32,000 nucleotides of DNA from Aciduliprofundum boonei T469 (GTDB lineage: Archaea > Thermoplasmatota > Thermoplasmata > Thermoplasmatales > Aciduliprofundaceae): NCBI RefSeq assembly GCF_000025665.1, contig NC_013926.1, forward strand, positions 420,001 to 452,000, given 5' to 3'. The position numbers and the translations under genes are program-made. This document shows, piece after piece, positions 10,021 to 19,272 of the stretch. The stretch's first letter is position 1. The number at the start of each line of letters is the position of its first letter. Below the pieces are notes generated by a model. It worked only from the letters and a program-made list of their open reading frames with translations. It had not been told where the DNA came from and did not search any database.

Positions 10021-10452
10021 GTGAAATTGAGTGAGCTTAGGCCTGGAGAAACGGGCGTTGTAACAAAAGTTACGGGAACGGGAGCTATACATAGAAGGCT
10101 CTTAGCCATGGGTATACTTCCAGGCACTGTGATTCGGGTAGCCCGTTTATCTCCGTTTGGAGATCCTATTGAGTATGAAATAAGAGGGGTTTTTATATCT
10201 CTGAGGAGAAGCGAGGCCGAGTATGTTGAAATCGATAGAATTGTCCCTCTACATTTAATTCCTGCCGGGGAGAAAGTTAGAATTGTAATACTCGATGGAG
10301 GGATGAATTTCATAAGAAATATGGGGAGCATAGGAATTTCCCCGGGAAAAATTATTGAGATAATAAGCCCATGCTGTCCTATGCGAGTCAGAACTGAGCT
10401 GGGAGAATACTATGTTGGAAGGGGAGAGGCATATAGAATTTATGTGAGGTGA
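10021..10452 (+). CDS. feoA: FeoA-FeoA tandem-domain ferrous iron transport protein
   Basis: 143 aa, GTG start. It contains two FeoA-like SH3 modules: LRPGETGVVTKVTG...RRLLAMGILPGTVIRV and IPAGEKVRIVILDGG...IGISPGKIIEI. It lies directly upstream of feoB. Confidence 0.8.
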   Translation: MKLSELRPGETGVVTKVTGTGAIHRRLLAMGILPGTVIRVARLSPFGDPIEYEIRGVFISLRRSEAEYVEIDRIVPLHLIPAGEKVRIVILDGGMNFIRNMGSIGISPGKIIEIISPCCPMRVRTELGEYYVGRGEAYRIYVR

Positions 10453-10456
10453 TTTC

Positions 10457-12454
10457 TTGCTAATTGCCCTGGCTGGAAATCCAAACACAGGCAAAAGCAG
10501 CCTTTTTAACGCTATAACTGGTGCGCATCAACATATTGGTAACTGGCCAGGGGTAACTGTTGAGAAAAAGGAGGGTATAATAACCTTTGAGGGAAAGAAA
10601 ATAACGATAGTGGATTTACCCGGCACATACTCTTTAACGGCATACTCTCTCGAGGAGGTCATAACCAGAAATTTCATTTTGGAGGAGGAGCCAGATGTGG
10701 TTGTAGATGTAATTGATGCCACAAACTTAGAGAGAAACCTGTACCTTCTCACAGAATTGATGGAGCTCACAGATAGAATAGTCATAGCATTAAATATGTT
10801 TGATGAGGCAAAGAGAAAGTACAAACTCGATGTAAAGAAGATGAAGGAACTTTTGGGCATACCTGTTATTCCAACAGTTGCAATAAAGAATAAAGGAGTG
10901 AAAGAACTCCTGCACGCCTGCCTCCATGGAGATTTCACACCAAAGAAATTTTACTATCCCGAGGATGTGGAAAATAGAATCGAAAAACTTCAAGGAATAA
11001 TGGAAAAATTAGATTTAAAGAATAAAAGATGGCATGCTATAAAGCTTATTGAAAATGATAGTGAGGTACGCAAAAAATTTGCAAATTTAGGCAGAAAGGA
11101 TATTTTGCACGAGGCGGAGCATCTCAGGCACGAAATTGAAGACATATATGGGGATGATATAGAAACATTGATGGCCTCGTTCAGGTATTCTTTCGCCCAT
11201 GGCCTGTTCCACGAGGTGGCAGAGCCCTTGAATGTCGGTGGAGTTACAATAACTGATATGATTGACCATGTTGTGGCGCATAAAATATTCGGCTTGCCCA
11301 TATTCTTGGTCATTATGTACCTCTCATTCGAATTCGTATTCGTTGTTGCTGCACCTTTTCAAGATGCAATTGACCTGATTTTTAATGGGAAAACACTACC
11401 TTCTGGGCAGCACATAAACGGATTGATAGACATCTCATATCACTGGATGGCTTCTTTTATACCTGCCTGGGCTGCTTCTTTCATAAATTATGGTATGCTA
11501 AGAGGTTTAGCAGCTGTTCTTACATTTACCCCAATTATAATGTTTCTATTCCTCATTCTCTCAATACTTGAGGATTCTGGATACCTCGCTAGAGTCGCAT
11601 TCTTGATGGACAGGTTGATGCGCAAGATCGGTTTGGAGGGGAGGGGCGTAATATCCCTGATGCTTGGATTTGGATGCAATGTGCCGGCAGTTATGAGTAC
11701 TAGGGCTTTAAAGAATGAGAGAGAGAGAAAATTGAGCATAGCATTAAATCCACTAATTCCCTGCGGTGCTAGAATACAGGTGTTTGCATTCATAACAGCC
11801 ATATTTTTCAAACACAATAAAGCTCTTGTTATGTGGTCTCTTCTACTTCTTTCCATGGCAGTTGTAGCCGTCTTGGGTTACATTTACAGCAAAACGATTT
11901 TTAAAGGAAAGGCAGAGCCCTTTGTTATGGAATTGCCCCCGTACAGAGTACCATCTCTAAAAGGAATAATCATACATATGTGGGAAAAAAGTGAGGGGTT
12001 CTTACGCAAGGCAGGAACTATCATCGTAGGAGCCGCTGGAATAATCTGGCTTTTAGCTGCCTTGCCTTGGGGCGTTAAATTCGGCGGAGAGAATAGCTAT
12101 ATTGGGCAAATTGCCCATTTTCTTGCCCCAGTAGGCGCTCCATTTGGAATCACTCCAGAATCAATCATAGCCCTATTTTTTGGATTCTTCGCAAAGGAAG
12201 TTGTGATAGATGTATTCTATGTGCTATACGGCACAAAAGAGGCAATGCTTGCAGCCATGACTCCCTTGCAGGCATATTCATTGCTCCTATTCATCCTATT
12301 TTACACACCTTGCGTGGCCACATTGGCAACAATATACAATGAGACAAGGAGCATAAAATTCGTCATATTTGTAATTCTTGAGGGCTTTGCCTTAGCATTG
12401 CTCTTCTCCTTCCTCGCATATAATATAGGCTCATTTATGGGGGTGGGAGGTTGA
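10457..12454 (+). CDS. feoB: Ferrous iron transporter FeoB (GTPase plus permease)
   Basis: 665 aa. G-domain motifs GNPNTGKSSLFN, DLPGTYS and ALNMFD are followed by a polytopic membrane domain. The start is TTG, preceded by GAGGTGA. Confidence 0.93.
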   Translation: MLIALAGNPNTGKSSLFNAITGAHQHIGNWPGVTVEKKEGIITFEGKKITIVDLPGTYSLTAYSLEEVITRNFILEEEPDVVVDVIDATNLERNLYLLTELMELTDRIVIALNMFDEAKRKYKLDVKKMKELLGIPVIPTVAIKNKGVKELLHACLHGDFTPKKFYYPEDVENRIEKLQGIMEKLDLKNKRWHAIKLIENDSEVRKKFANLGRKDILHEAEHLRHEIEDIYGDDIETLMASFRYSFAHGLFHEVAEPLNVGGVTITDMIDHVVAHKIFGLPIFLVIMYLSFEFVFVVAAPFQDAIDLIFNGKTLPSGQHINGLIDISYHWMASFIPAWAASFINYGMLRGLAAVLTFTPIIMFLFLILSILEDSGYLARVAFLMDRLMRKIGLEGRGVISLMLGFGCNVPAVMSTRALKNERERKLSIALNPLIPCGARIQVFAFITAIFFKHNKALVMWSLLLLSMAVVAVLGYIYSKTIFKGKAEPFVMELPPYRVPSLKGIIIHMWEKSEGFLRKAGTIIVGAAGIIWLLAALPWGVKFGGENSYIGQIAHFLAPVGAPFGITPESIIALFFGFFAKEVVIDVFYVLYGTKEAMLAAMTPLQAYSLLLFILFYTPCVATLATIYNETRSIKFVIFVILEGFALALLFSFLAYNIGSFMGVGG

Positions 12455-12885
12455 AACTTCAAACAAAGGTGCTTCTCTCCGTTATTTACTCATCCATCCT
12501 CGCTTCCTTCTCACTTATTCTGGGCATACTTGAAATAGCTGGCTTTTTGGGTTTTCACACAAATTTTGCTCCTGCGGATATAATGGGTGGCTTTTCACTC
12601 ATAGTGGCTTCCACCCTTATTCTCTATGGTGCTAAAAACACTGCAAAGCTTCTATACGATGGGCTTTCATTTTACCTTGTGGGCCTCTCTCTCCTCATAG
12701 CCATTGGATTTTTAAATATAATAATAGCTCTTGCAGATTTACTTGATTATTACATCCTGTGCATTGGAGAGAACTGCCCCGGCTATGCAGCCTATGTTCG
12801 TCCAGAGATATACATTTTCTTCTTGGCCCTCCTTGGACTCTACCCATTCTTTGCTCGCTGGCATTTCAGGAGGAAAACTCCATGA
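12451..12885 (+). CDS. Small multi-pass membrane protein of unknown function, embedded in the feo operon
   Basis: 144 aa with about four hydrophobic segments. Its start overlaps the feoB stop by 4 nt, and its stop overlaps the next start (ATGA). I recognise no family. The start codon (TTG) is uncertain. Confidence 0.55.
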   Translation: MKLQTKVLLSVIYSSILASFSLILGILEIAGFLGFHTNFAPADIMGGFSLIVASTLILYGAKNTAKLLYDGLSFYLVGLSLLIAIGFLNIIIALADLLDYYILCIGENCPGYAAYVRPEIYIFFLALLGLYPFFARWHFRRKTP

Positions 12886-13133
12886 TTAAGGATGTTCTGC
12901 GTGGCATATACCAAGGAAAGAGCATAGCACAAATTGCAGAAGAGCTCAATATGGAGTACTCTGCACTCATGGGCATGATTGAGCATCTGATAAAAATGGG
13001 ATACATACTCGCCGCGGATAGAAAACCTCAGGAGCTTGGCCCTTGCAAAACATGCCCTCTTTACAAAGTATGCTCAAAGAACGGCCCGAAAATATACTAT
13101 TTAACAGAAAAAGGGAAGAGGGCAATAAAATAA
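12882..13133 (+). CDS. FeoC-like small winged-helix protein with a C-terminal Cys cluster
   Basis: I use the internal ATG at 12882 of ORF 12759..13133, preceded by AGGAGG. The 83-aa product reads MIKDVLRGIYQGKSIAQIAEELNMEYSALMGMIEHLIKMGYI (wHTH-like), then CKTCPLYKVC (C-x2-C-x5-C). Its position after feoB supports the call. Confidence 0.6.
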   Translation: MIKDVLRGIYQGKSIAQIAEELNMEYSALMGMIEHLIKMGYILAADRKPQELGPCKTCPLYKVCSKNGPKIYYLTEKGKRAIK

Positions 13134-13157
13134 ATTAATCAAATACCATTTACCTCC

Positions 13158-13661
13158 ATGCTTGTGGGAATAATAAGCGATACACATGATAATTTGGATT
13201 CTGCAAAAAAAGCGGCTGAGATTTTCAGGGAGAGAGATATAAAGATAATTTTTCATCTCGGTGATTTCATAGCCCCGTTCACCCTAAAAGCATTCGAGGG
13301 CTTTGAATTGTATGGAGTTTTTGGAAACAACGATGGGGAGAAGTTCTTAATAAAAAAAATTGCAGAAGAGTTTGGTTTTAAAATTGATTTTGCACCCTTT
13401 GAGGTCGAGCTTGAAGGCAAATCTTTTTTGCTCCTGCATGGATTTGGAAGTATAGAAAGAACTTTAAAAATTGTTAATTCTTTCGCCGCCTCTCAGAATT
13501 ACGATTTCGTCCTATATGGTCACACTCATAAAAGAGATTTAAGAAAAAAGGGGAAAACGATGATAATCAATCCTGGGGAGGCATGCGGATATTTAACTGG
13601 GAAAAGAAGTATTGCTATTCTGAACATAGAAAATAAAAGCGCAGAATTCGTTGAATTTTGA
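13158..13661 (+). CDS. MJ0936/YfcE-family metallophosphoesterase
   Basis: 167 aa carrying the calcineurin-like motifs ISDTHD, GDFIAP, GNNDGE, LLHG and GHTHK. Confidence 0.85.
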   Translation: MLVGIISDTHDNLDSAKKAAEIFRERDIKIIFHLGDFIAPFTLKAFEGFELYGVFGNNDGEKFLIKKIAEEFGFKIDFAPFEVELEGKSFLLLHGFGSIERTLKIVNSFAASQNYDFVLYGHTHKRDLRKKGKTMIINPGEACGYLTGKRSIAILNIENKSAEFVEF

Positions 13662-13679
13662 GATACTTTAGTACAAAAA

Positions 13680-13687
13680 ATTAAATA
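13680..13687 (+). promoter_or_regulatory. TATA box (attaaata) for KaiC-like cassette 1
   Basis: It is centred about 28 nt upstream of the ATG at 13712 and is preceded by an A-rich BRE-like stretch. Confidence 0.45.
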
Positions 13688-13711
13688 CATTTAAAGAAAT
13701 AGGGAAATACC

Positions 13712-13942
13712 ATGGAGATACTCTGTTTCCACAGCAGCGAGGAATATAGAAGCAAGATTTCGGAGCATTTGAAAGAGATGGGTTTTGAGTTTGAATGCTT
13801 TGAGCTGGAAGATTATAAAGGTATTTTATCCCTATGGAAAAAGTATTCTCCATCAATAATCTTAACTGAATTAACGGATAAAAATATAAAAATTCTTGAG
13901 GAGGATATTTTTCGTAGTGCCTATCATAAAACATTTGAATAG
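13712..13942 (+). CDS. Small protein resembling the first half of a receiver (CheY-like) domain, without the phospho-acceptor residues
   Basis: 76 aa. By eye, MEILCFHSSEEYRSKISEHLKEMGFEFECFELEDYKGILSLWKKYSPSIILTEL lines up with receiver beta1-alpha1-beta2-alpha2-beta3. The acidic DD pair is replaced by HS, and the phospho-Asp position is Glu or Thr. It is the first gene of a tightly packed operon. Confidence 0.45.
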   Translation: MEILCFHSSEEYRSKISEHLKEMGFEFECFELEDYKGILSLWKKYSPSIILTELTDKNIKILEEDIFRSAYHKTFE

Positions 13943-13949
13943 GGCACTT

Positions 13950-14558
13950 ATGACCAAGTATGCAAATAGAGATTTCATAATTCTGGATGAGTTAACAAAG
14001 AATTTCAGAAGGAGTTTTATGAGCATCCTTTTATCACATAAGGATAAGAAAAGCGTTGCAAAAATACTTTCAATACCGAGAATTGCAAAGAACTTGATAT
14101 ACGCTTACGATTTTGAATGGGGGAGAACTTTCATAGTGCCCACAAGCGCAAAGGATGAACTCTACAAAATTCTACCAAAGATCTCCGATTGGAATGTACA
14201 AATATTTATGGCAATAAGAGAGAGGGCTGGTGTGCCTAAAAATTTGAGCAATGCAAAAATTGTTTGGATAACGGATATCGTGGGCAAAGATAGAATTAAA
14301 CCCCACAATCTAACAATTTTAACGGATAGTATAATAAGATTTATTGAAGAGAATGAGCACACCTTCATCGTGGTGGATTGCATAGAATATCTCTTGCTCT
14401 ATAACGATTTTATAAATGTGCTCAGAAATATTGAGCTAATAAATAGCTATGTGATGGAGCATAATGCCATTTTAATTATCATAACTGATAATGAAGCTTA
14501 TACAACTAAAGAGTATTCTTTATTAAGGAGATATGCAATAGAATGGAAAGGAGTGTGA
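13950..14558 (+). CDS. DUF835-type protein (P-loop-less KaiC/RecA-like fold)
   Basis: I use the internal ATG at 13950 of ORF 13896..14558. The C-terminal half IVWITDIVGKDRIKPHNLTILTDSIIRFIEENEHTFIVVDCIEYLLLYNDFINVLRNIELINSYVMEHNAILIIITD matches the DUF835 pattern as I recall it (W-T-D, P..L, hhhhD-EYL, hhhhhD). There is no Walker A. Confidence 0.7.
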   Translation: MTKYANRDFIILDELTKNFRRSFMSILLSHKDKKSVAKILSIPRIAKNLIYAYDFEWGRTFIVPTSAKDELYKILPKISDWNVQIFMAIRERAGVPKNLSNAKIVWITDIVGKDRIKPHNLTILTDSIIRFIEENEHTFIVVDCIEYLLLYNDFINVLRNIELINSYVMEHNAILIIITDNEAYTTKEYSLLRRYAIEWKGV

Positions 14559-14562
14559 TAGG

Positions 14563-15879
14563 ATGATACCTCAAGAAGTCATCGGATTCTTCAAAAATAA
14601 AGGCGGGCACTCTTTAATCATAAAGGGTGAGCCGGGTAGTGGAAAAACCACATTTGCACTGGAGATTTTGAATTCTCTAAAGGACCATTTTGAAATCCAA
14701 TACCTATCTTCACGGGTTGCGGATGATGTCCTATTTCTCCAGTTCCCTTGGCTGGAAAATGTGTTAAAGAAGAAGATCAAAAAAAGCAATAGTAAAAAAA
14801 TAAAGCGTGAGGAACTCAACAAGCTGGAGGGACTTATAGAAGAAGGGTTGATGGAAGAGAAAGCAACATTCACGGAAAATGAGGCCATATTTGAAATAGG
14901 CTCTATGATGCCAGAAATTGATGAAATCTATGATTTTGTAGAAAATGTTCATCCTAAAAAGGCATTAGTGTGTGTGGATTCTATCGATGGACTTAGCGAA
15001 AAGTACGGTGTACCAGCTGAAAAATTGCTCTACACTCTCCAAAAAGACCTAGTGGAAGAGGGTGTTGCAAATATTGTATTTGTGCTTGAGAGCTCTGGAT
15101 TTGAGAATATAGAATACTTGGGAGACGGAGTAATAAGCTTGCACCACGAGCCTTGGAACTCCAGCTGGAAGAGATATATGTACATAAAAAAGCTCAGGGG
15201 CTCTCCAATAAAGAGATCAAAATACATTTACACTCTGGAAGGCGGGCATTTCAATGTCCTCAACTACAATAATTTCTCATTGGATAACATAAAAAGCATA
15301 GATTTATCAAATCTGATTTCATACTTGGAGAGCATCGACTCTTCATCTTTGAATTTAATAATCTCTCCAAATTTTCCTGTTGAGTTATTACAGGCCATTG
15401 TGCTATCATTCTTGAAAATGAGTAAGGAAGATTCTTTAATTATTCCTCCAATATCTTACCCAAGCACGAAGGTAAAAGAGCATTCTTCAAAATTCTTAGA
15501 TAAGGATGTGAAAACTGCAGGATTTAACAAAGAGAAGGCGGACATAATCCTTGAAGGAAGTGATATGCTTATTGAATTATCTCCAGATATCGTTAATTAT
15601 CATATAAAAGAGGGCGCAAATGTAATAATAAGCTTAGACACCCTCTTAGGCCTCTACGGAGATTTAAGAGACCTGCCAAGATTAATTGAGAGGATGAAGA
15701 GAAGTCACAGGGTAATACTTCTTAGCTGGAATAACGAAATAAATGCTGGCATAGAGAGAACAATAAATATGGTTATGATGGAAAATATACCTGTTATAAA
15801 TGATTCTAAGAGCGCAAAAGCGATAATTCCTAAAATGAGCAACGATGGTATATCGCTAGAGCTTATACCCCTAATGTAA
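14563..15879 (+). CDS. KaiC/GvpD-like RecA-superfamily P-loop ATPase with a second, degenerate C-terminal domain
   Basis: 438 aa with Walker A GEPGSGKT (14626-14649), Walker B LVCVDSIDGL, and a KaiC-type KKLRGS motif. It has a Lys-rich insert, KKKIKKSNSKKIKREELNK. The C-terminal ~190 aa have no P-loop. AAGGAGTG lies upstream of the ATG. Confidence 0.8.
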   Translation: MIPQEVIGFFKNKGGHSLIIKGEPGSGKTTFALEILNSLKDHFEIQYLSSRVADDVLFLQFPWLENVLKKKIKKSNSKKIKREELNKLEGLIEEGLMEEKATFTENEAIFEIGSMMPEIDEIYDFVENVHPKKALVCVDSIDGLSEKYGVPAEKLLYTLQKDLVEEGVANIVFVLESSGFENIEYLGDGVISLHHEPWNSSWKRYMYIKKLRGSPIKRSKYIYTLEGGHFNVLNYNNFSLDNIKSIDLSNLISYLESIDSSSLNLIISPNFPVELLQAIVLSFLKMSKEDSLIIPPISYPSTKVKEHSSKFLDKDVKTAGFNKEKADIILEGSDMLIELSPDIVNYHIKEGANVIISLDTLLGLYGDLRDLPRLIERMKRSHRVILLSWNNEINAGIERTINMVMMENIPVINDSKSAKAIIPKMSNDGISLELIPLM

Positions 15880-15882
15880 GGG

Positions 15883-16224
15883 GTGATTAAAATCGTAGAT
15901 GAATCCTATGCCTGGGATGTCCTTCATCATCTTTCGGATCCATATTCTGTTAGGATTTTGAGGGCCACATTACACAGACCATTAGATGCCATTACATTGA
16001 GCAATACCCTTGGAATTCCAATAGCCGTGTGTTATAGAAGATTGAGAGAGTTGGAAAGGTTAGGATTGATTGAAGCAGTAGGAAGAAAATTAACACAAAA
16101 GGGTAAGTGGATTACCCTTTACAAAGCTCGAATTAAGAATGCCACTGTGGTAATGAAAGAGGGTAAATTGTATTTGCGCATCTCTTTCCGGTGGGGCCAG
16201 GAGGAAGAGCTAGAGGTTGAATAA
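15883..16224 (+). CDS. Winged helix-turn-helix DNA-binding protein (ArsR/TrmB-like), paralog of 16825..17163
   Basis: 113 aa, GTG start 3 nt after the previous stop. The recognition-helix region LSNTLGIPIAVCYRRLRELERLGLIEA parallels LSQELEVPIAACYRRLHMLEKAGLIDA in the paralog. Confidence 0.7.
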   Translation: MIKIVDESYAWDVLHHLSDPYSVRILRATLHRPLDAITLSNTLGIPIAVCYRRLRELERLGLIEAVGRKLTQKGKWITLYKARIKNATVVMKEGKLYLRISFRWGQEEELEVE

Positions 16225-16697
16225 ACCTTTCTGCTAACTATGTAAAGTACGGCCATAGTTGCTAGGAAAATTATTGTGCCCAATATAGCTGCATTCATAC
16301 CGAATATTGTGGTGCGATATGCATACCACTGAGAGCTGATAGGATAGAATATCGCCAAATTATCTCCCTCCAAGATTGCATCAGAATATATGTGAGTCAT
16401 ATTTATCCCGAATATTGTGAGAAGAAGAGGCATAAACCTCTTTCTTGAATCGTAAATGTAATCAATAAGTATTAATGCGAGAGGGAGCTGCCAGAAGAAG
16501 ATAAGATTATGCGTTATGTCCTTATTTACCAGGTGAGCACCATCCGTAATAGCCTCCATTATTATGGCAAGAATAAGAGCACTAACAAACTTACCCCTCC
16601 TCTTTGGAAGAAGCAGAATGCCAGCTAAGAATCCTAAAAGAATATGCCACATGATATTTCCGACGGATGTTTCCAAGAGGAACCATGATACATTCAT
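16119..16697 (-). CDS. Membrane-bound metal-dependent hydrolase-like protein (YdjM/DUF457-like)
   Basis: 192 aa, polytopic. The His/Asp pattern (MWHILLG, TDGAHL, ITHNLIF, THIYSD) resembles DUF457. The last 35 codons lie antisense to the wHTH gene and look like low-complexity read-through. Confidence 0.55.
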   Translation of the reverse strand: MNVSWFLLETSVGNIMWHILLGFLAGILLLPKRRGKFVSALILAIIMEAITDGAHLVNKDITHNLIFFWQLPLALILIDYIYDSRKRFMPLLLTIFGINMTHIYSDAILEGDNLAIFYPISSQWYAYRTTIFGMNAAILGTIIFLATMAVLYIVSRKVYSTSSSSSWPHRKEMRKYNLPSFITTVAFLIRAL

Positions 16698-16757
16698 ATT
16701 TGTCCTTTTGCTATTTTTATTTAAATACTGTATGATGTTAAAATCTCGGGAGATTTT

Positions 16758-16787
16758 TGTGATTGATTTTCATTTGAGATAATCACA
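16758..16787. promoter_or_regulatory. Inverted repeat TGTGATT-N16-AATCACA, a candidate operator
   Basis: The arms are perfect 7-bp repeats at 16758-16764 and 16781-16787, immediately upstream of the TATA-like box of the wHTH gene at 16825. They sit in the divergent intergenic region shared with the membrane hydrolase gene. Confidence 0.3.
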
Positions 16788-16795
16788 CTGCAAAA

Positions 16796-16803
16796 TATAT
16801 AAA
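16796..16803 (+). promoter_or_regulatory. TATA box (tatataaa) for KaiC-like cassette 2
   Basis: It is centred about 26 nt upstream of the ATG at 16825, so the transcript is probably leaderless. Confidence 0.5.
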
Positions 16804-16824
16804 AATAGGATCGATGGCTTAACT

Positions 16825-17163
16825 ATGGAAAATGCATCGCTAGACAAAATTGTAAGGATTTTAACAGACAATTACGCCATAAAAATTCTGGCTGCTACAA
16901 ATAAGGAGGAGAAGAGTGCTATCCAGCTTAGCCAAGAGCTTGAAGTGCCTATCGCTGCATGCTATCGCCGCTTGCACATGCTAGAGAAAGCAGGACTAAT
17001 TGATGCATACGAGAAAATCACGCCCAAGGGTAAAAAGATGAGGTACTATATGTCAAAGATTAAGAGAGCACATATAAAAATTGAAGACAACACCCTCATA
17101 GTTGAACTATTATTCTCAAATGGAAATAAAAAGAAATACAATGGAAAGATAGTGGCTGGATAA
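16825..17163 (+). CDS. Winged helix-turn-helix DNA-binding protein (ArsR/TrmB-like), paralog of 15883..16224
   Basis: 112 aa. ILTDNYAIKILAAT...SAIQLSQELEVPIAACYRRLHMLEKAGLIDAYEKITPKGKKMRYY gives an HTH plus wing. A TATA-like box is centred about 26 nt upstream of the ATG. Confidence 0.75.
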   Translation: MENASLDKIVRILTDNYAIKILAATNKEEKSAIQLSQELEVPIAACYRRLHMLEKAGLIDAYEKITPKGKKMRYYMSKIKRAHIKIEDNTLIVELLFSNGNKKKYNGKIVAG

Positions 17164-17165
17164 AA

Positions 17166-17729
17166 ATGAATGTGAAAGAAACTTTGATATCTGAAAATCT
17201 CGCCAATTCGATTTCTAAGAACGATATTATTGTTATCAATGTGAAACCAACACATCAAACAAAAAATAATTTAATTGTTTTAAAAGCTCTTGCAGATATA
17301 AACAAATGGAGGGGACTAATAATTACCCTCGAAAAACCACACCATTATCTCACTTACCTCCTAGGAATCCAAGGAATACCTCAGAGAAATTTAACTTATA
17401 TTGATTTAGCGTATGCAAAAAAGAAGAAAATTAAGTTCCCTATAGAGATTATGAAGAACAAAGAACTGGTTGGAGGTTTCATAGATGGCAATAAAATATC
17501 TGCAGAGAACTTTGATTTTATCATGGTTGATAATATCTCAACTGCAAAAATGTACATGCGCAAAGAGAGTTTGATCGATTTCATTCATTATCTTATTGAT
17601 GAATCAAAGAAGTACAAAATTACATTGATACTGCCCATAGATGTTTCAAGAGAAAAGGATGTTTTTGAAGAAATTAAAGATGAGGTAAAGAAGATAGATT
17701 TTGAGGAGGTGTTGAAAAATGCCTATTAG
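17166..17729 (+). CDS. KaiC-fold protein with a destroyed Walker A (inactive ATPase-like subunit)
   Basis: 187 aa. DIIVINVKPTHQTKNNLIVLKALADINKWRGLIITLEKPHHYL aligns by eye with KaiC-domain xxVLISGxxGSGKTxxxxQFxxxGxxxGExxxYISxEE, but KPTHQTKN replaces GxxGxGKT. It keeps a Walker-B-like FIMVDNIS and the later strand KITLILPID. Confidence 0.6.
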   Translation: MNVKETLISENLANSISKNDIIVINVKPTHQTKNNLIVLKALADINKWRGLIITLEKPHHYLTYLLGIQGIPQRNLTYIDLAYAKKKKIKFPIEIMKNKELVGGFIDGNKISAENFDFIMVDNISTAKMYMRKESLIDFIHYLIDESKKYKITLILPIDVSREKDVFEEIKDEVKKIDFEEVLKNAY

Positions 17730-18393
17730 CCGCATTCCCTCGGGAATTAAGGGACTGGATTCGCTGGTAGAAGGGGGCTTTCCTGCACCCTCTGTTATTC
17801 TCATCTCAGGCACTGCCGGCTCTGGAAAAACGACTTTTGCATTTCAATTTTTAATGGAGGGGGCGAAGAAAGGAGAGAAGGGTTTGTACATTTCCACGCT
17901 TAGCGAGAGAACTGAGTGGATGCTCAGATTTATGTCCAACTACGAGTTCTTTGACCCAAAATACTTGGAAGATGGAACTATAATTTATGAAGATATAGGC
18001 AAGGACTTGGGAACCTTGGATAATATGAAACTCATAATAAGGATAAATGAGATTCTAGCGGAGCATGTGCCTCAGAGAATAGTGATAGACCCCATAAATG
18101 TTGTCAATAACTTTGTGGACAATTACAGACAATTTCTCTTTGAGCTCGTCACCCTTCTAAAAAATTGGTCGGCGGTCTCAATATTAACTGGAGAAATCAA
18201 AGAAGGAGAAAAATATCCAGAGGATGTTGGATACACTGCTGATGGAATAATCTCTCTTCTTATGAAAACTGAAGATAATGTAATCAAGAGGTACATACAA
18301 ATCTTGAAGATGCGAGGAACAGCCCATAGTATGGCCCTTCATCCACTTGATATAACTTCTAACGGAATAGAGGTCCTAAAAGCCAGATTCTAA
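17719..18393 (+). CDS. Single-domain KaiC-like RecA-superfamily ATPase
   Basis: 224 aa with GIKGLDSLVEGGFPAPSVILISGTAGSGKTTFAFQFL (Walker A at 17809-17832), Walker B RIVIDPIN, and LKMRGTAHS. GGAGGT lies 8 nt upstream of the ATG, and the gene overlaps the previous one by 11 nt. Confidence 0.88.
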   Translation: MPISRIPSGIKGLDSLVEGGFPAPSVILISGTAGSGKTTFAFQFLMEGAKKGEKGLYISTLSERTEWMLRFMSNYEFFDPKYLEDGTIIYEDIGKDLGTLDNMKLIIRINEILAEHVPQRIVIDPINVVNNFVDNYRQFLFELVTLLKNWSAVSILTGEIKEGEKYPEDVGYTADGIISLLMKTEDNVIKRYIQILKMRGTAHSMALHPLDITSNGIEVLKARF

Positions 18394-19272
18394 TTTTCTC
18401 CCCGTTATTCTCTCGTACATCTCTACATATAATTTTGATACTTTTTCTACCATATCTTTGGGCAATGGAGGTATTTCGGGCTCCTCTTTTCCTTCTTCCC
18501 TTGCCATCTTTAACTCTTCATAGTATCCTATGCTACGATAGTACTGCCTTACAAATTCCTTGCTTAATTGTACAATTTTCCCCCTCTCATAGGCATCTTT
18601 GTCCCACCAGCGGTCCTCATCCAGTGTACCGAAGGTGTCCACCAAATAAATCTCTCTTCCTTCACCAAATGCAAATTCCTTCTTGCCATCCACATGCAAT
18701 AATCCCCTTTTCCCAACTTCATTTGTTATTATTTCATCCACCTTTAAAATTAACTCTCTTATCTCCTCTATCTCGCTTTGTCTTAGCCCACCAATTTCTC
18801 GGGCCTCTTCAAAACTCACTTTTCTATCATAAGCTTCAAACTTCGTTGTTATCTCAAAGTACGGCTCGGGCAATTTCTCCCCATATTCTGGCATACTCTC
18901 AAACCCCAAAAGTTTGTAATCCATTTTTCCATTCTTCAATCTCTCGTATAGAGAGCCAGCAACATAATATCTAGTTATGAACTCCAAAGGGATTAGGTAA
19001 TTTTCATTCTCAATCCTTGGCTTGTTGATTATTCTAAATCTCCCAACTCGCATTTTTGAATCTTCACAGGATAAATAATGATTTTTTATTTTCATCTCAC
19101 CTATTTTTTCAAACCAGAAGGCTGCACTCTTGCAAAGTGTTTCACCTTTTCGTGGAATTTTTGAGGGTATGATTTTGTCAAAAACAGATATGTTATCTGT
19201 AAACAAAAATAGCAATTCCTTGTCATTCAAAGCATAAACTTCCTTAACCTTTCCCTTCCTTATTAATTGCAT
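18376..19272 (-). CDS. purC: Phosphoribosylaminoimidazole-succinocarboxamide (SAICAR) synthase
   Basis: 298 aa. The SAICAR synthetase pattern is present: GKVKEVY...LFLFTDNISVFD, LIPLEFITRYYVAGS and LVDTFGTLDEDR. Confidence 0.9.
   Translation of the reverse strand: MQLIRKGKVKEVYALNDKELLFLFTDNISVFDKIIPSKIPRKGETLCKSAAFWFEKIGEMKIKNHYLSCEDSKMRVGRFRIINKPRIENENYLIPLEFITRYYVAGSLYERLKNGKMDYKLLGFESMPEYGEKLPEPYFEITTKFEAYDRKVSFEEAREIGGLRQSEIEEIRELILKVDEIITNEVGKRGLLHVDGKKEFAFGEGREIYLVDTFGTLDEDRWWDKDAYERGKIVQLSKEFVRQYYRSIGYYEELKMAREEGKEEPEIPPLPKDMVEKVSKLYVEMYERITGRKLESGF

What the first reader, a model, noticed from the sequence alone, without database searches (positions are those of the whole stretch)
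13712..18393. Two tandem cassettes of wHTH + P-loop-less KaiC-fold protein + intact KaiC-like ATPase: candidate uncharacterised ATPase-driven transcription switch
Seven + strand genes lie in two operon-like blocks between housekeeping genes (phosphodiesterase 13158-13661, purC 18376-19272). Block 1: receiver-like fragment (13712-13942), 7-nt gap, DUF835-type protein (13950-14558), 4-nt gap, 438-aa P-loop ATPase (14563-15879; GEPGSGKT, LVCVDSIDGL, KKLRGS), 3-nt gap, 113-aa wHTH (15883-16224). Block 2: 112-aa wHTH paralog (16825-17163), 2-nt gap, 187-aa KaiC-fold protein with KPTHQTKN in place of Walker A (17166-17729), 11-nt overlap, 224-aa canonical KaiC-like ATPase (17719-18393; GTAGSGKT, RIVIDPIN, LKMRGT). 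The same three parts therefore occur twice, in permuted gene order and with translational coupling: a DNA-binding output, a catalytically dead KaiC-fold, and a live KaiC-fold ATPase. Comparative genomics has proposed KaiC-like ATPases as signal-transduction hubs in archaea (Makarova, Galperin and Koonin 2017). To my knowledge no wHTH-linked dead/live KaiC module has been characterised biochemically. The closest functional analogies are KaiC with its non-enzymatic partners, and the haloarchaeal P-loop protein GvpD antagonising the activator GvpE. My inference is that the dead subunit co-assembles with or gates the live ATPase ring, whose nucleotide or phosphorylation state controls the wHTH.
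Basis: partly seen in the sequence, partly recalled or inferred. Interest (0 to 1): 0.8.

Follow-up and report, generated by a model that had tools for sequence, protein, structure and literature searches.

The report
GvpD-like KaiC ATPase–regulator gene cluster
In the deep-sea archaeon Aciduliprofundum boonei, a conserved gene cluster pairs KaiC-family ATPases, several with dead ATP sites, with two small DNA-binding proteins. It is a relative of the gas-vesicle GvpD/GvpE switch used for some other purpose, and this kind of module has been predicted by comparative genomics but never tested in the lab.

Summary
The genes are real and the domain calls mostly hold. The window is the finished A. 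boonei T469 genome.

**Corrections to the finding**
- The "receiver-like fragment" and the DUF835 ORF are one 281-aa gene, split by a 1-nt insertion (T-run 13908-13912). The split is seen only in this assembly.
- A conserved minus-strand YdjM-like membrane gene (16119-16697) between the blocks was missed.

**What the parts are**
- The 187-aa protein is a P-loop-less KaiC fold (AF2 pLDDT 87; Foldseek top hits mainly KaiC, with RadA, RecA and FlaH).
- The 438-aa protein is a full-length homologue of genuine GvpD (hhalign 99.9%). Its first domain has a P-loop; its second is a dead KaiC-like domain.
- It is followed after 3 nt by a wHTH gene, the position gvpE holds after gvpD.

**What comparative genomics shows**
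- The locus is not two equivalent triads. The deep core is a GvpD-like ATPase plus 1-3 wHTHs of this family, found across Thermoplasmata.
- A separate dead-KaiC→live-KaiC coupled pair also occurs without any wHTH.
- Only the Aciduliprofundum clade joins both modules.
- The divergent promoter (16698-16824) is 67-87% conserved where third codon positions are 33-50% identical. It carries a unique 18-bp palindrome.

**Verdict**
Most likely this is an ATP-dependent, GvpD/GvpE-like switch acting on autoregulated wHTH factors. Its targets are unknown, although purine genes are recurrent neighbours. It is a new variant of a known, computationally predicted kind. Interest is moderate.

The parts
13658..13711 (+). 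Block-1 promoter. It holds a TTGAGATA box (13658-13665) about 9 nt upstream of the BRE/TATA-like CAAAAAATTAAATA (13674-13687), with a short or absent leader before the ATG at 13712.
   Evidence: The sequence CAAAA[AG][AT]TAAATA is conserved upstream of the orthologous gene in 7 of 8 loci, including L008 and L009 where the upstream flank differs. Function is inferred.
13712..14558 (+). One gene for a 281-aa protein: an N-terminal pseudo-receiver-like domain plus a C-terminal DUF835 (inactivated KaiC) domain. In this assembly it is split by a 1-nt insertion in the T-run 13908-13912 and annotated as ADD08249 (76 aa) plus ADD08250 (213 aa).
   Evidence: tblastn of the intact 281-aa orthologue matches two frames of the window. 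The corrected translation is 100% identical to the draft-genome protein P0014. Eleven of the 12 members of its 90% cluster are full-length (ten of 281-282 aa, one of 213 aa). DUF835 scores 3.6e-38, and DUF835 is listed as iKaiC in PMC5847659. The N-terminal domain gives only weak CheY/flavodoxin-like PDB hits (E 0.002-0.15), and the phospho-acceptor Asp is replaced by Glu or Pro.
14563..15879 (+). 438-aa GvpD homologue. The N-terminal KaiC-CI-like domain has Walker A (GEPGSGKT), Walker B (VCVDSIDGL) and KLRGS. The C-terminal KaiC-CII-like domain has no P-loop.
   Evidence: Pfam GvpD_P-loop scores 72.4 bits against a cut-off of 24. The family profile A3 matches genuine Halogeometricum GvpD at hhalign 99.9%, E 5e-32, over 452 columns and the full length. 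The AF2 model has pLDDT 86; the Foldseek top 50 are all double-domain KaiC at E about 4e-16. The profile aligns across the KaiC CI-CII junction. There is no catalytic Glu.
15883..16224 (+). wHTH1 (Aboo_0441), 113 aa, an ArsR/Phr-type winged helix with a beta-rich C-terminal extension. It has a GTG start 3 nt after the ATPase stop, the position gvpE holds after gvpD.
   Evidence: HTH_20 scores 8.5e-07. Family alignment is A4. The nearest solved structures are P. furiosus Phr 2p4w (4.9e-5) and PH1932. The gvpD-gvpE spacing in L084 is 4 nt.
16119..16697 (-). 192-aa polytopic membrane protein, weakly YdjM-like. It is convergent with wHTH1 (106-nt 3' overlap) and divergent from wHTH2.
   Evidence: The ORF is. 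YdjM scores 2.8e-4, below the cut-off. It keeps this position in every locus of the clade long enough to show it (L001-L013, L078). YdjM-like genes also lie next to GvpD-like/wHTH genes in L028 (3e-6) and L017 (1.8e-6).
16698..16824 (.). Divergent promoter/operator region. Elements are: the TATA for the membrane gene (TATTTAAATA, 16718-16727); a perfect 18-bp palindrome AAAATCTC-GG-GAGATTTT (16740-16757); TGTGATT-N16-AATCACA (16758-16787), which includes TTGAGATAATCAC; and the BRE/TATA GCAAAATATATAAAAA (16790-16805) for the wHTH2 operon.
   Evidence: The region is 67-87% identical to five orthologous loci, while third codon positions of the flanking genes are only 33-50% identical. The alignment gives 28 invariant columns over nine loci. 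The palindrome core is unique in the window (1 match, 0.11 expected). Protein binding is inferred.
16825..17163 (+). wHTH2 (Aboo_0442), 112 aa, paralogue of wHTH1 and first gene of block 2.
   Evidence: It is 41% identical to wHTH1 (E 6e-22). HTH_20 scores 1.4e-06 and wHTH-PRTase_assc 27.1 bits. NCBIfam Phr_regulator scores 1.2e-07.
17166..17729 (+). 187-aa P-loop-less KaiC-fold protein (Aboo_0443), an iKaiC. The Walker-A position reads VKPTHQTKN, and a Walker-B-like FDFIMVDNIS is retained.
   Evidence: The AF2 model has pLDDT 87 and pTM 0.86. Foldseek PDB hits are KaiC, RadA, FlaH, SSO2452, PH0186 and RecA. A profile search finds 117 relatives; of 65 scanned, 19 hit Pfam KaiC, 18 DUF835 and 18 DUF7504. 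None of the 116 relatives has a Walker A. UniProt already names it 'KaiC-like domain-containing protein'.
17719..18393 (+). 224-aa single-domain KaiC-like ATPase (Aboo_0444). It has Walker A (GTAGSGKT), Walker B (RIVIDPIN), LKMRGT, and one of KaiC's two catalytic Glu ('LSE'). It overlaps the iKaiC gene by 11 nt.
   Evidence: Pfam KaiC scores 1.2e-49. phmmer against PDB KaiC gives 2.4e-47, with PH0186 and PH0284 at 1e-27 and 1e-26, and residue-level alignments.

Best explanation
The locus is a regulatory cluster built from two modules.

**Module A** is a homologue of the haloarchaeal gvpD-gvpE pair. A two-domain KaiC-family protein (P-loop domain plus dead domain) is followed by small wHTH transcription factors. 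This module is found across Thermoplasmata.

**Module B** is a translationally coupled dead-KaiC then live-KaiC pair. It is also found on its own in other archaea.

In the Aciduliprofundum clade the two are joined:
- wHTH2 heads module B.
- A pseudo-receiver-DUF835 protein precedes the GvpD-like gene.
- A YdjM-like membrane protein sits between the modules.

**Proposed working (inferred).** The wHTH proteins bind the conserved palindromic half-sites (GAGATTTT / GAGATAAT) in the divergent promoter. They would thereby control their own operon and the membrane gene. The KaiC-family oligomers bind the wHTH proteins in a nucleotide-dependent way and lower their activity or abundance, as GvpD does to GvpE. 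The P-loop-less domains (DUF835, the C-domain of the GvpD-like protein, the 187-aa protein) would serve as non-catalytic ring partners or input sensors.

**Shown:** gene content, folds, homology to GvpD, conservation of the gene pairs and of the promoter.
**Inferred:** every protein-protein and protein-DNA contact, and the direction of regulation.
For: - GvpD homology covers the full length: hhalign 99.9%, E 5e-32; Pfam GvpD_P-loop 72 bits.
- Genuine gvpD is followed 4 nt later by gvpE, which carries a PadR-type wHTH (Pfam 2.3e-8). Here a wHTH follows after 3 nt.
- GvpD binds GvpE and lowers its amount, and needs its Walker motifs to do so (PMC4390858).
- A wHTH of this specific family (A4) lies in 21 of 29 loci holding a GvpD-like gene. 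In most of these it is directly next to that gene, and in several there are two or three copies. These loci come from Thermoplasmata and Methanomassiliicoccales MAGs.
- The dead→live KaiC pair, with a 4-nt gap or a 4-14-nt overlap, is conserved in the clade and in four of five remote relatives.
- The whole eight-gene layout is kept in L008 although its upstream flank differs.
- The divergent promoter shows a strong phylogenetic footprint: 67-87% identity against 33-50% at third codon positions. It holds a unique 18-bp palindrome and repeated GAGAT(T/A) boxes just upstream of BRE/TATA.
- A TTGAGATA box also lies just upstream of the TATA of the GvpD-like gene in the distant L040.
- No match to any defence system and no RNA family.
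Against:
- The wHTH family is not demonstrably homologous to GvpE beyond the shared fold (hhalign probability 1.8%).
- The GvpD-like P-loop domain lacks the catalytic glutamate of KaiC. The window protein gives no Pfam GvpD_bR2 hit and has no arginine cluster where GvpD's C-terminal RKRADR stretch aligns.
- Direct BLAST similarity to haloarchaeal GvpD is limited to the first 57 residues.
- Block 2 is absent from this site in L009. The iKaiC+KaiC pair occurs without wHTH or GvpD-like genes. So the two modules need not work together.
- No target other than the cluster's own promoter was found in the window.
- If the frameshift in the DUF835 gene is real, part of the system is broken in this strain.
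Confidence: 0.55

Rival explanations
1. Two independent regulatory modules lie side by side. Block 1 with the membrane gene is a GvpDE-like switch. Block 2 (wHTH2, iKaiC, KaiC) is a separate ATPase-controlled regulator. There is no cross-talk, and the adjacency is inherited gene order.
For: - L009 keeps block 1 and the membrane gene but has purC directly after them, with no block 2.
- iKaiC+KaiC pairs stand alone in L079-L082.
- GvpD-like plus wHTH stands alone in about 15 Thermoplasmata loci.
Against: - In other Thermoplasmata the two wHTH paralogues are adjacent, both behind the GvpD-like gene (L014, L016, L018, L019, L022, L026, L040). This suggests wHTH2 belonged to module A before the membrane gene came between them.
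- The eight-gene order survives a change of upstream flank (L008).
- Both promoters in the window share a TTGAGATA box about 9 nt upstream of BRE.
Confidence: 0.25
2. The cluster senses purine nucleotides or ATP and regulates purine biosynthesis and salvage. The KaiC-family domains, including the dead ones, would be the ligand sensors and the wHTHs the regulators of pur genes.
For: Different de novo purine genes lie immediately next to the module in three different gene orders:
- purC, convergent, in the Aciduliprofundum clade, including L008 and L009.
- purB, divergent, in L021 and L026 (Pfam), and in L029 and L040 by BLAST clustering with those two.
- purH, convergent, in L023 and L027.

In L014-type loci a PRTase, an amidohydrolase and a PNP-family phosphorylase lie 1.5-5 kb downstream. 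The three enzymes purC, purB and purH catalyse consecutive steps (established pathway knowledge).
Against: - Adjacency may be a relic of one ancestral neighbourhood rather than independent events.
- No copy of the palindrome or of GATAATCAC lies at the purC-operon promoter in the window.
- L010 has no purC next to the cluster.
- L014-type loci are flanked upstream by PolX and UDG instead.
Confidence: 0.12
3. The KaiC/RadA-family proteins are recombination or repair accessory factors (aRadC-like RadA paralogues). The wHTH proteins would be DNA-binding partners rather than transcription factors.
For: - Foldseek and sequence hits include RadA, RecA and Rad51.
- PolX and uracil-DNA glycosylase are neighbours of the module in L014, L018, L022 and L024.
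Against: - The best matches are KaiC and GvpD, not RadA.
- Three of the five KaiC-type domains have no P-loop.
- The wHTHs are typical ArsR/Phr-type regulators.
- The strongly conserved palindromic promoter points to transcriptional autoregulation.
Confidence: 0.05
4. The cluster is a KaiC-type timer (clock or hourglass) based on autophosphorylation cycles of the 224-aa KaiC-like ATPase, with the wHTHs as output.
For: KaiC224 matches both KaiC domains strongly (2.4e-47) and keeps Walker A and B, one catalytic Glu and the KxRG motif.
Against: - It is a single-domain protein.
- No kaiA or kaiB gene was seen in the ±8-kb Pfam gene lists of the orthologous loci that cover this part of the window.
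- The organism lives at dark deep-sea vents (organism identity; habitat from my own knowledge).
- Conservation of the phosphosites was not established.
Confidence: 0.03

Closest known systems
GvpD-GvpE regulatory pair of haloarchaeal gas-vesicle clusters
   Same: - The 438-aa protein is a full-length homologue of genuine GvpD, with a P-loop domain and a degenerate second domain.
- A small wHTH-containing regulator gene follows within 3-4 nt in both.
- GvpD oligomerises, binds GvpE and reduces its amount in a Walker-motif-dependent way (PMC4390858). This gives a tested precedent for the proposed mechanism.
   Different: - No gvp genes are nearby.
- The protein is about 100 aa shorter, gives no Pfam GvpD_bR2 hit, and has no arginine cluster at the aligned C-terminal position.
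- The partner is an ArsR/Phr-type wHTH, present as two paralogues, rather than the PadR-type GvpE. Homology between the two is not shown.
- Extra components are present: pseudo-receiver-DUF835, a membrane protein, and an iKaiC/KaiC pair.
Archaeal KaiC-like 'signal transduction hub' neighbourhoods (Makarova, Galperin and Koonin 2017; Galperin et al. 2018)
   Same: These also combine KaiC-like ATPases, inactivated KaiC domains (DUF835, MEDS) and HTH outputs. REC-DUF835 is listed for Thermoplasmata (PMC5847659).
   Different: This is a computational proposal, and the 2017 paper could not be read here. I therefore cannot say whether this exact neighbourhood is described in it. The N-terminal domain here is not a detectable REC domain and lacks the phospho-acceptor Asp.
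Cyanobacterial KaiC with KaiB, SasA and RpaA
   Same: It has the same fold and a two-tier (CI/CII) architecture, for the GvpD-like protein. ATPase state is passed on to a DNA-binding output.
   Different: - No KaiA, KaiB or SasA is present.
- The second domain here is dead.
- The output is a stand-alone wHTH rather than a response regulator.
- There is no evidence of rhythmicity.
CirA (KaiC-like) and the regulator CsmR in Haloferax volcanii
   Same: A KaiC-family protein is proposed to tune a transcription factor post-translationally (PMC13286277).
   Different: The link there comes from overlapping transcriptomes; a gene-adjacent pair was not described in the passages I read. CirA's biochemistry is also uncharacterised, and the regulator family is different.
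ArlH (FlaH) and single-domain archaeal KaiC-like proteins PH0186, PH0284 and SSO2452
   Same: KaiC224 is of this single-domain type. ArlH acts through nucleotide-dependent binding to partner proteins.
   Different: There is no archaellum context. Here the gene is coupled to a dedicated dead paralogue and a wHTH.

Membership tests
GvpD (Pfam PF07088 GvpD_P-loop + PF20440 GvpD_bR2) | P-loop domain matches the family model above its cut-off | tested here: met
   72.4 bits against a cut-off of 24, E 5.9e-20, residues 9-194.
GvpD (Pfam PF07088 GvpD_P-loop + PF20440 GvpD_bR2) | Full-length homology to a GvpD encoded in a genuine gvp cluster | tested here: met
   Profile A3 against Halogeometricum pHBOR01 GvpD: hhalign 99.9%, E 5.2e-32, 452 columns, 5-490 against 12-535. 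BLAST alone sees only residues 1-57.
GvpD (Pfam PF07088 GvpD_P-loop + PF20440 GvpD_bR2) | C-terminal basic region 2 (arginine cluster that affects repression) | tested here: not met
   The window protein gives no PF20440 hit. The aligned C-terminal segment has no arginine cluster. The 500-545-aa Thermoplasmata relatives hit PF20440 only weakly, at 27-29.5 bits.
GvpD (Pfam PF07088 GvpD_P-loop + PF20440 GvpD_bR2) | Encoded in a gas-vesicle (gvp) cluster next to gvpE | tested here: not met
   No gvp family appears in the gene lists of the orthologous loci (±8 kb). The downstream gene is an ArsR-type wHTH with no significant similarity to GvpE.
KaiC family (PF06745), active ATPase: 224-aa protein | Family model match, Walker A, Walker B, arginine-finger motif, catalytic Glu pair | tested here: met
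   169.2 bits. GTAGSGKT, RIVIDPIN and LKMRGT are present, and 'LSE' aligns to KaiC 'FEE', so one of the two Glu residues is kept. Enzymatic activity was not tested.
Clock KaiC (double-domain, with KaiA/KaiB) | Two tandem active domains and kaiB/kaiA partners | tested here: not met
   KaiC224 has a single domain. The GvpD-like protein has two domains, but the second lacks a P-loop. No kaiA or kaiB appears in the ±8-kb gene lists of the orthologous loci.
Inactivated KaiC (iKaiC): 187-aa protein | RecA/KaiC fold without Walker A, with relatives in recognised iKaiC families | tested here: met
   AF2 pLDDT 87. Foldseek hits are KaiC, RadA and FlaH with TM 0.47-0.58. Of 65 relatives, 19 hit PF06745, 18 PF05763 and 18 PF24336. 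None of the 116 relatives has a Walker A. Direct profile-profile comparisons with narrow alignments were not significant.
DUF835 (PF05763) | Family model match above its cut-off | tested here: met
   130.9 bits against a cut-off of 33.1. Listed as iKaiC in PMC5847659.
Response-regulator receiver (REC): N-terminal domain of the DUF835 protein | Response_reg model match and a phospho-acceptor Asp at the end of beta-3 | tested here: not met
   The full-length protein gives no Response_reg hit at E<=0.1. The profile gives only weak CheY and flavodoxin-like hits (E 0.002-0.15). The Asp position holds Glu or Pro across the family. hhalign against CheY gives 18.5% probability over 24 residues.
ArsR/HTH_20-type wHTH regulators | Family model match above its cut-off and nearest solved relatives | tested here: met
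   29.3 and 28.6 bits against a cut-off of 27. The nearest PDB entries are Phr 2p4w (4.9e-5), an ArsR-family regulator 7r22 and PH1932. DNA binding was not tested.
YdjM (PF04307) membrane proteins | Family model match above its cut-off | tested here: inconclusive
   20.9 bits against a cut-off of 29 for the window protein. Analogous neighbours in L028 and L017 score 27.3 and 28.0 bits.

The most novel reading that the evidence does not exclude
The GvpD-like ATPase plus wHTH pair is the widespread, ancestral form of the haloarchaeal GvpD-GvpE switch. In Thermoplasmata it works as a nucleotide-state sensor that governs purine biosynthesis and salvage genes. The neighbours are purC, purB or purH, depending on the lineage. 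The P-loop-less KaiC domains (DUF835, the GvpD C-domain, the 187-aa protein) would act as ligand-binding inputs. This would be the first archaeal purine regulon controller, and the first assigned function for dead KaiC domains.
Probability: 0.12. Interest if true: 0.75.

Novelty: new variant of a known kind. Interest (0 to 1): 0.5.

Why it matters
KaiC-family proteins are greatly expanded in archaea. They have been proposed, from genome comparisons only, to be a main signalling system there, yet almost none has a known partner or output.

This locus offers a compact, testable case.
- It has a true GvpD homologue with a wHTH gene in the gvpE position.
- It has a conserved dead/live KaiC gene pair.
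- It has a sharply conserved 60-bp operator-like region, which gives an immediate DNA probe.

Showing that the ATPases control these wHTH factors would extend the one experimentally known example (GvpD reducing GvpE) into a general archaeal ATPase-to-transcription-factor switch. It would also say what inactivated KaiC domains are for. The recurrent purine-gene neighbours give a first guess at the physiological input or output.

Tried and rejected
- **Pairwise BLASTP.** The 187-aa protein against DUF835 and against KaiC224 gave nothing.
- **Profile-profile comparisons.** hhalign with my narrow family alignments was not significant for 187-aa vs KaiC224, DUF835-C vs KaiC224, GvpD-C vs KaiC224 or vs DUF835, or the N-terminal domain vs CheY. 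Only GvpD-N vs KaiC224 reached 98%. The fold assignments therefore rest on structure prediction and on transitive hits, not on direct profile matches.
- **PDB sequence search** with the 187-aa family profile found nothing meaningful.
- **Makarova et al. 2017** is not in the held library. I could not check whether this neighbourhood is already drawn there.
- **Defence-system reading rejected.** PADLOC gives only generic Csa3-type wHTH similarity.
- **RNA element rejected.** No Rfam match.
- **Bacterial promoter/terminator scan** is uninformative for an archaeon and showed no excess.
- **GvpE homology of the wHTH family** was tested and not supported.
- **L025 145-aa ORF.** This ORF between wHTH and KaiC is not an iKaiC; it gives only weak RHH-like hits.
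- **BLAST clustering of neighbour ORFs** in high-GC MAGs was polluted by antisense shadow ORFs. I relied on Pfam labels of chosen representatives instead.
- **GAGATWWT excess** in the window (27 matches against 11±3.4, half of them inside the cluster) was set aside as probably compositional.
- **Programmed frameshifting** in the DUF835 gene was rejected, because all other members of its cluster are intact.

Full report
**Source and observation.** The window comes from the finished genome of Aciduliprofundum boonei T469 (Thermoplasmatota, DHVE2). The 438-aa protein is 100% identical to a protein on a 1,486,778-bp contig named for that organism. The other proteins are ADD08249-ADD08255, with Aboo_0441, Aboo_0442 and Aboo_0444 given as locus tags.

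Pfam confirms the following:
- DUF835 at 3.6e-38.
- The 438-aa ATPase as GvpD_P-loop (5.9e-20) and KaiC (6.4e-13), on its first ~228 residues only.
- Both small proteins as HTH_20 wHTHs just above the cut-off.
- The 224-aa protein as KaiC at 1.2e-49.

The two wHTHs are paralogues, 41% identical with E 6e-22.

**Three corrections.**

First, the "receiver-like fragment" (13712-13942) and the DUF835 ORF are one gene. The intact 281-aa orthologue aligns to two reading frames of the window that join at EEDIF|VVPIIKH. Removing one T from the run 13908-13912 restores the frame. The corrected translation is 100% identical to the draft-assembly protein ABOONEI_2616. In its 90% cluster, both draft copies and nine environmental members are 281-282 aa; only the finished genome carries the 76-aa + 213-aa split. 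This is an assembly error or a mutation of the sequenced culture, not biology of the family.

Second, a 192-aa membrane-protein gene lies on the minus strand between the two blocks (16119-16697; weak YdjM match at 2.8e-4). It overlaps the end of wHTH1 by 106 nt. It keeps this position in every locus of the clade long enough to show it.

Third, purC is on the minus strand, convergent with the last gene.

**The P-loop-less proteins.** The 187-aa protein has no Pfam or NCBIfam hit and no pairwise similarity to DUF835 or KaiC224. Its close family is confined to Aciduliprofundum-like genomes, with 13 clusters. Three lines of evidence still place it in the KaiC fold:
- An AlphaFold2 model built on that family is confident, with pLDDT 87 and pTM 0.86. 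Its Foldseek PDB matches are dominated by KaiC CI/CII, with RadA, RecA/Rad51, FlaH, SSO2452 and PH0186 among them (E 1e-4 to 1e-3, TM 0.47-0.58).
- A profile search of 1.84 billion representatives finds 117 relatives at E<=1e-3. Of 65 scanned, 19 match Pfam KaiC, 18 DUF835 and 18 DUF7504.
- None of the 116 relatives has a Walker A motif.

UniProt already names the protein "KaiC-like domain-containing protein". DUF835 is listed as an inactivated KaiC domain by Galperin et al. 2018, who also list REC-DUF835 proteins in Thermoplasmata (PMC5847659).

The N-terminal ~120 residues of the DUF835 protein give only weak matches over most of their length to CheY and flavodoxin-like folds (E 0.002-0.15). 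The phospho-acceptor Asp position holds Glu or Pro across the family. It is at best a pseudo-receiver.

**The 438-aa protein is a GvpD homologue with two KaiC-like domains.** Its family profile (A3) aligns across the CI-CII junction of cyanobacterial KaiC. In the longer Thermoplasmata relatives the second domain begins with the KaiC-type "STGxxELDxxLGGGL" motif but has no P-loop. The AF2 model (pLDDT 86, pTM 0.81) matches full-length double-domain KaiC over about 500 columns at E ~4e-16.

Against a genuine GvpD from the gas-vesicle cluster of Halogeometricum borinquense pHBOR01, the profile gives hhalign probability 99.9%, E 5e-32, over 452 columns and the full length. In that cluster gvpD is followed 4 nt later by gvpE. 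By Pfam, that gvpE contains a PadR-type winged helix (2.3e-8). In the window a wHTH gene follows the GvpD homologue after 3 nt.

There are differences from genuine GvpD:
- The window protein gives no Pfam GvpD_bR2 hit and has no arginine cluster at the aligned C-terminal position.
- No gvp genes are nearby.
- The wHTH family is not significantly similar to GvpE.
- The P-loop domain has no glutamate at the position of KaiC's catalytic Glu. It may bind ATP rather than hydrolyse it.

KaiC224 keeps Walker A and B, the KxRG motif and one of the two catalytic glutamates.

**Comparative genomics changes the anatomy.** Within the Aciduliprofundum clade the order is: DUF835, GvpD-like, wHTH1, membrane gene (reverse), wHTH2, iKaiC, KaiC. 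This order holds in every locus long enough to show it, with protein identities down to about 45-50% (L001-L008, L010-L013). It also holds in L008, where the upstream genes differ. The Feo genes and the metallophosphoesterase upstream are therefore not part of the unit.

L009 keeps block 1 and the membrane gene but has purC directly after them, so block 2 is dispensable at this site.

I scanned species-representative genomes and labelled the ORFs with HMMs built from the locus. In Thermoplasmata and Methanomassiliicoccales MAGs the GvpD-like gene is accompanied by wHTH genes of this same family, whose signature is LTDxYAxKIL...IPIAACYRRI...KGK:
- It is followed by one or two of them in L014-L016, L018, L019, L021, L022 and L024-L026. 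L040, whose GvpD-like gene is split by frameshifts, shows the same layout.
- It is preceded by one in L020, L023 and L027.

By BLAST clustering, 21 of 29 loci with a GvpD-like gene hold such a wHTH.

Separately, remote relatives of the 187-aa protein (P0054, P0056, P0060, P0067; 24-29% identity) are each followed by a clear KaiC224 orthologue, after a 4-nt gap or a 4-7-nt overlap. In L079-L082 there is no wHTH or GvpD-like gene nearby. A fifth relative stands alone.

The locus is thus a clade-specific union of two modules plus accessory genes. It is not a duplicated three-part cassette. YdjM-like membrane genes recur next to GvpD-like/wHTH genes in L017 and L028, so the membrane protein may belong to the system.

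**Regulatory DNA.** The 127-nt divergent region between the membrane gene and wHTH2 (16698-16824) is 67-87% identical to five orthologous loci. Third codon positions in the flanking genes are only 33-50% identical. The region contains:
- Two TATA-like boxes about 75 nt apart, each about 25 nt from its start codon, which suggests leaderless transcripts (my reading).
- A perfect 18-bp palindrome, AAAATCTC-GG-GAGATTTT, at 16740-16757.
- The block TGATTTTCATTTGAGATAATCAC directly upstream of the BRE/TATA GCAAAATATATAAAAA.

The palindrome core occurs once in the window, against 0.11 expected. A TTGAGATA box also lies about 9 nt upstream of the BRE of block 1 (13658-13665). Another lies just upstream of the TATA of the GvpD-like gene in the distant Methanomassiliicoccales locus L040. 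L009's block-1 promoter has GATAATCA-N4-GCAAAAG with the spacing of the block-2 promoters. I read this as an operator for the wHTH proteins, that is, autoregulation. This is inference.

**Mechanism.** The only tested precedent is GvpD. It oligomerises, binds the activator GvpE and lowers its amount, and this requires its Walker motifs (PMC4390858). The case for a similar mechanism rests on the full-length homology, the same gene order, the tight coupling and the conserved operator.

The most likely working is that KaiC-family oligomers bind the wHTH factors in a nucleotide-dependent way and lower their activity or abundance. The wHTHs in turn control their own divergent promoter. The dead domains would be non-catalytic ring partners or input sensors. 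The 187-aa/KaiC224 pair can be seen as a split, order-swapped version of the live+dead two-domain architecture of the GvpD-like protein.

None of the contacts is shown. I give this 0.55.

The main rival is that blocks 1 and 2 are independent modules (0.25). L009 and the stand-alone pairs support it. The adjacency of both wHTH paralogues behind the GvpD-like gene in other lineages argues against it.

**Possible physiological link.** The gene next to the module is a de novo purine gene in three different gene orders:
- purC in the Aciduliprofundum clade.
- purB, divergent, in L021 and L026 (by Pfam), and in L029 and L040 (by clustering with those two).
- purH, convergent, in L023 and L027.

L014-type loci have a PRTase, an amidohydrolase and a PNP-family gene a few kb downstream, and PolX and UDG upstream. 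This could be a relic of one ancestral neighbourhood. No operator copy was found at the purC-operon promoter in the window. I rate a purine-linked function at about 0.12.

**Novelty and score.** The general idea of KaiC-like ATPases, inactivated KaiC domains and HTH outputs as archaeal signalling modules was proposed in 2017. I know this from citations, as the paper itself was not available. No paper in the searchable library characterises this module. The nearest recent work links the KaiC-like CirA to the regulator CsmR in Haloferax.

What is added here:
- Full-length homology of the 438-aa protein to GvpD.
- A Thermoplasmata-wide pairing of the GvpD-like ATPase with wHTH genes.
- A conserved dead→live KaiC gene pair.
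- An operator-like footprint in the divergent promoter.
- The corrections to the annotation.

I class it as a new variant of a known kind, with moderate interest (0.5). It is a good experimental entry point rather than a surprise.

Noticed in passing
window 13908-13912: A one-base insertion in a T-run splits the 281-aa DUF835 gene into ADD08249 (76 aa) and ADD08250 (213 aa) in the finished T469 genome only. Both draft-assembly copies and nine environmental relatives are intact.
   Followed up: yes
window 16119-16697 (minus strand): The membrane-protein gene has no ADD accession from the CP001941 record; only RefSeq WP_048102877 and TPA HII55050.1 cover it. Its 3' end overlaps wHTH1 by 106 nt. 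The overlap recurs in the orthologous loci, and the membrane protein's C-terminal tail there looks like the antisense translation of the wHTH1 coding sequence.
   Followed up: partly
window 18376-19272; L021, L026, L029, L040 (purB); L023, L027 (purH): Three different de novo purine genes (purC, purB, purH, which catalyse consecutive steps) lie immediately next to the GvpD-like/wHTH module in three different gene orders across Thermoplasmata.
   Followed up: partly
L084 7568-8146 (Halogeometricum borinquense pHBOR01): The gvpE gene of a genuine gas-vesicle cluster hits the Pfam PadR winged-helix model (2.3e-8, residues 90-149). The review I read describes GvpE only as resembling a leucine-zipper protein.
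   Followed up: partly
window 16765-16773 (minus strand): A conserved ATGAAAAT(C/T) lies inside the conserved promoter block. In the window it opens an 11-codon micro-ORF (MKINHKNLPRF*), and in L008 it was taken as the start of the membrane gene. It could be a leader peptide, or simply part of the operator.
   Followed up: no
L077 839-1497 and L078 1359-1734; L040 1632-3252; L041 7947-9460: In some relatives the 'live' genes are broken. The KaiC224 orthologue is split into two ORFs in two separate assemblies (L077, L078). The GvpD-like gene is split into three ORFs in L040 and L041. These are either pseudogenes or assembly errors.
   Followed up: no
window 13218-18254: GAGATWWT occurs 27 times in the window against 11±3.4 expected. 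About half of the matches fall within the 5-kb cluster. This is probably a composition effect of AT-rich coding sequence, but the motif matches the half-site of the promoter palindrome.
   Followed up: partly
window 10021-13661: An upstream iron-transport cluster runs FeoA, FeoB, an MJ0565-like membrane protein, a FeoC-like wHTH, and then a YfcE-type metallophosphoesterase. The FeoC-like ORF listed from 12759 (124 aa) is probably about 83-85 aa, as in the orthologues. This flank is replaced in L008 and L009, so it is not part of the module.
   Followed up: partly
L081 3429-4688: A HisKA_7TM-DUF835 membrane protein lies convergent to a stand-alone iKaiC+KaiC pair, with a second KaiC224-like gene downstream. 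This is another link between a DUF835 sensor and this ATPase pair.
   Followed up: no
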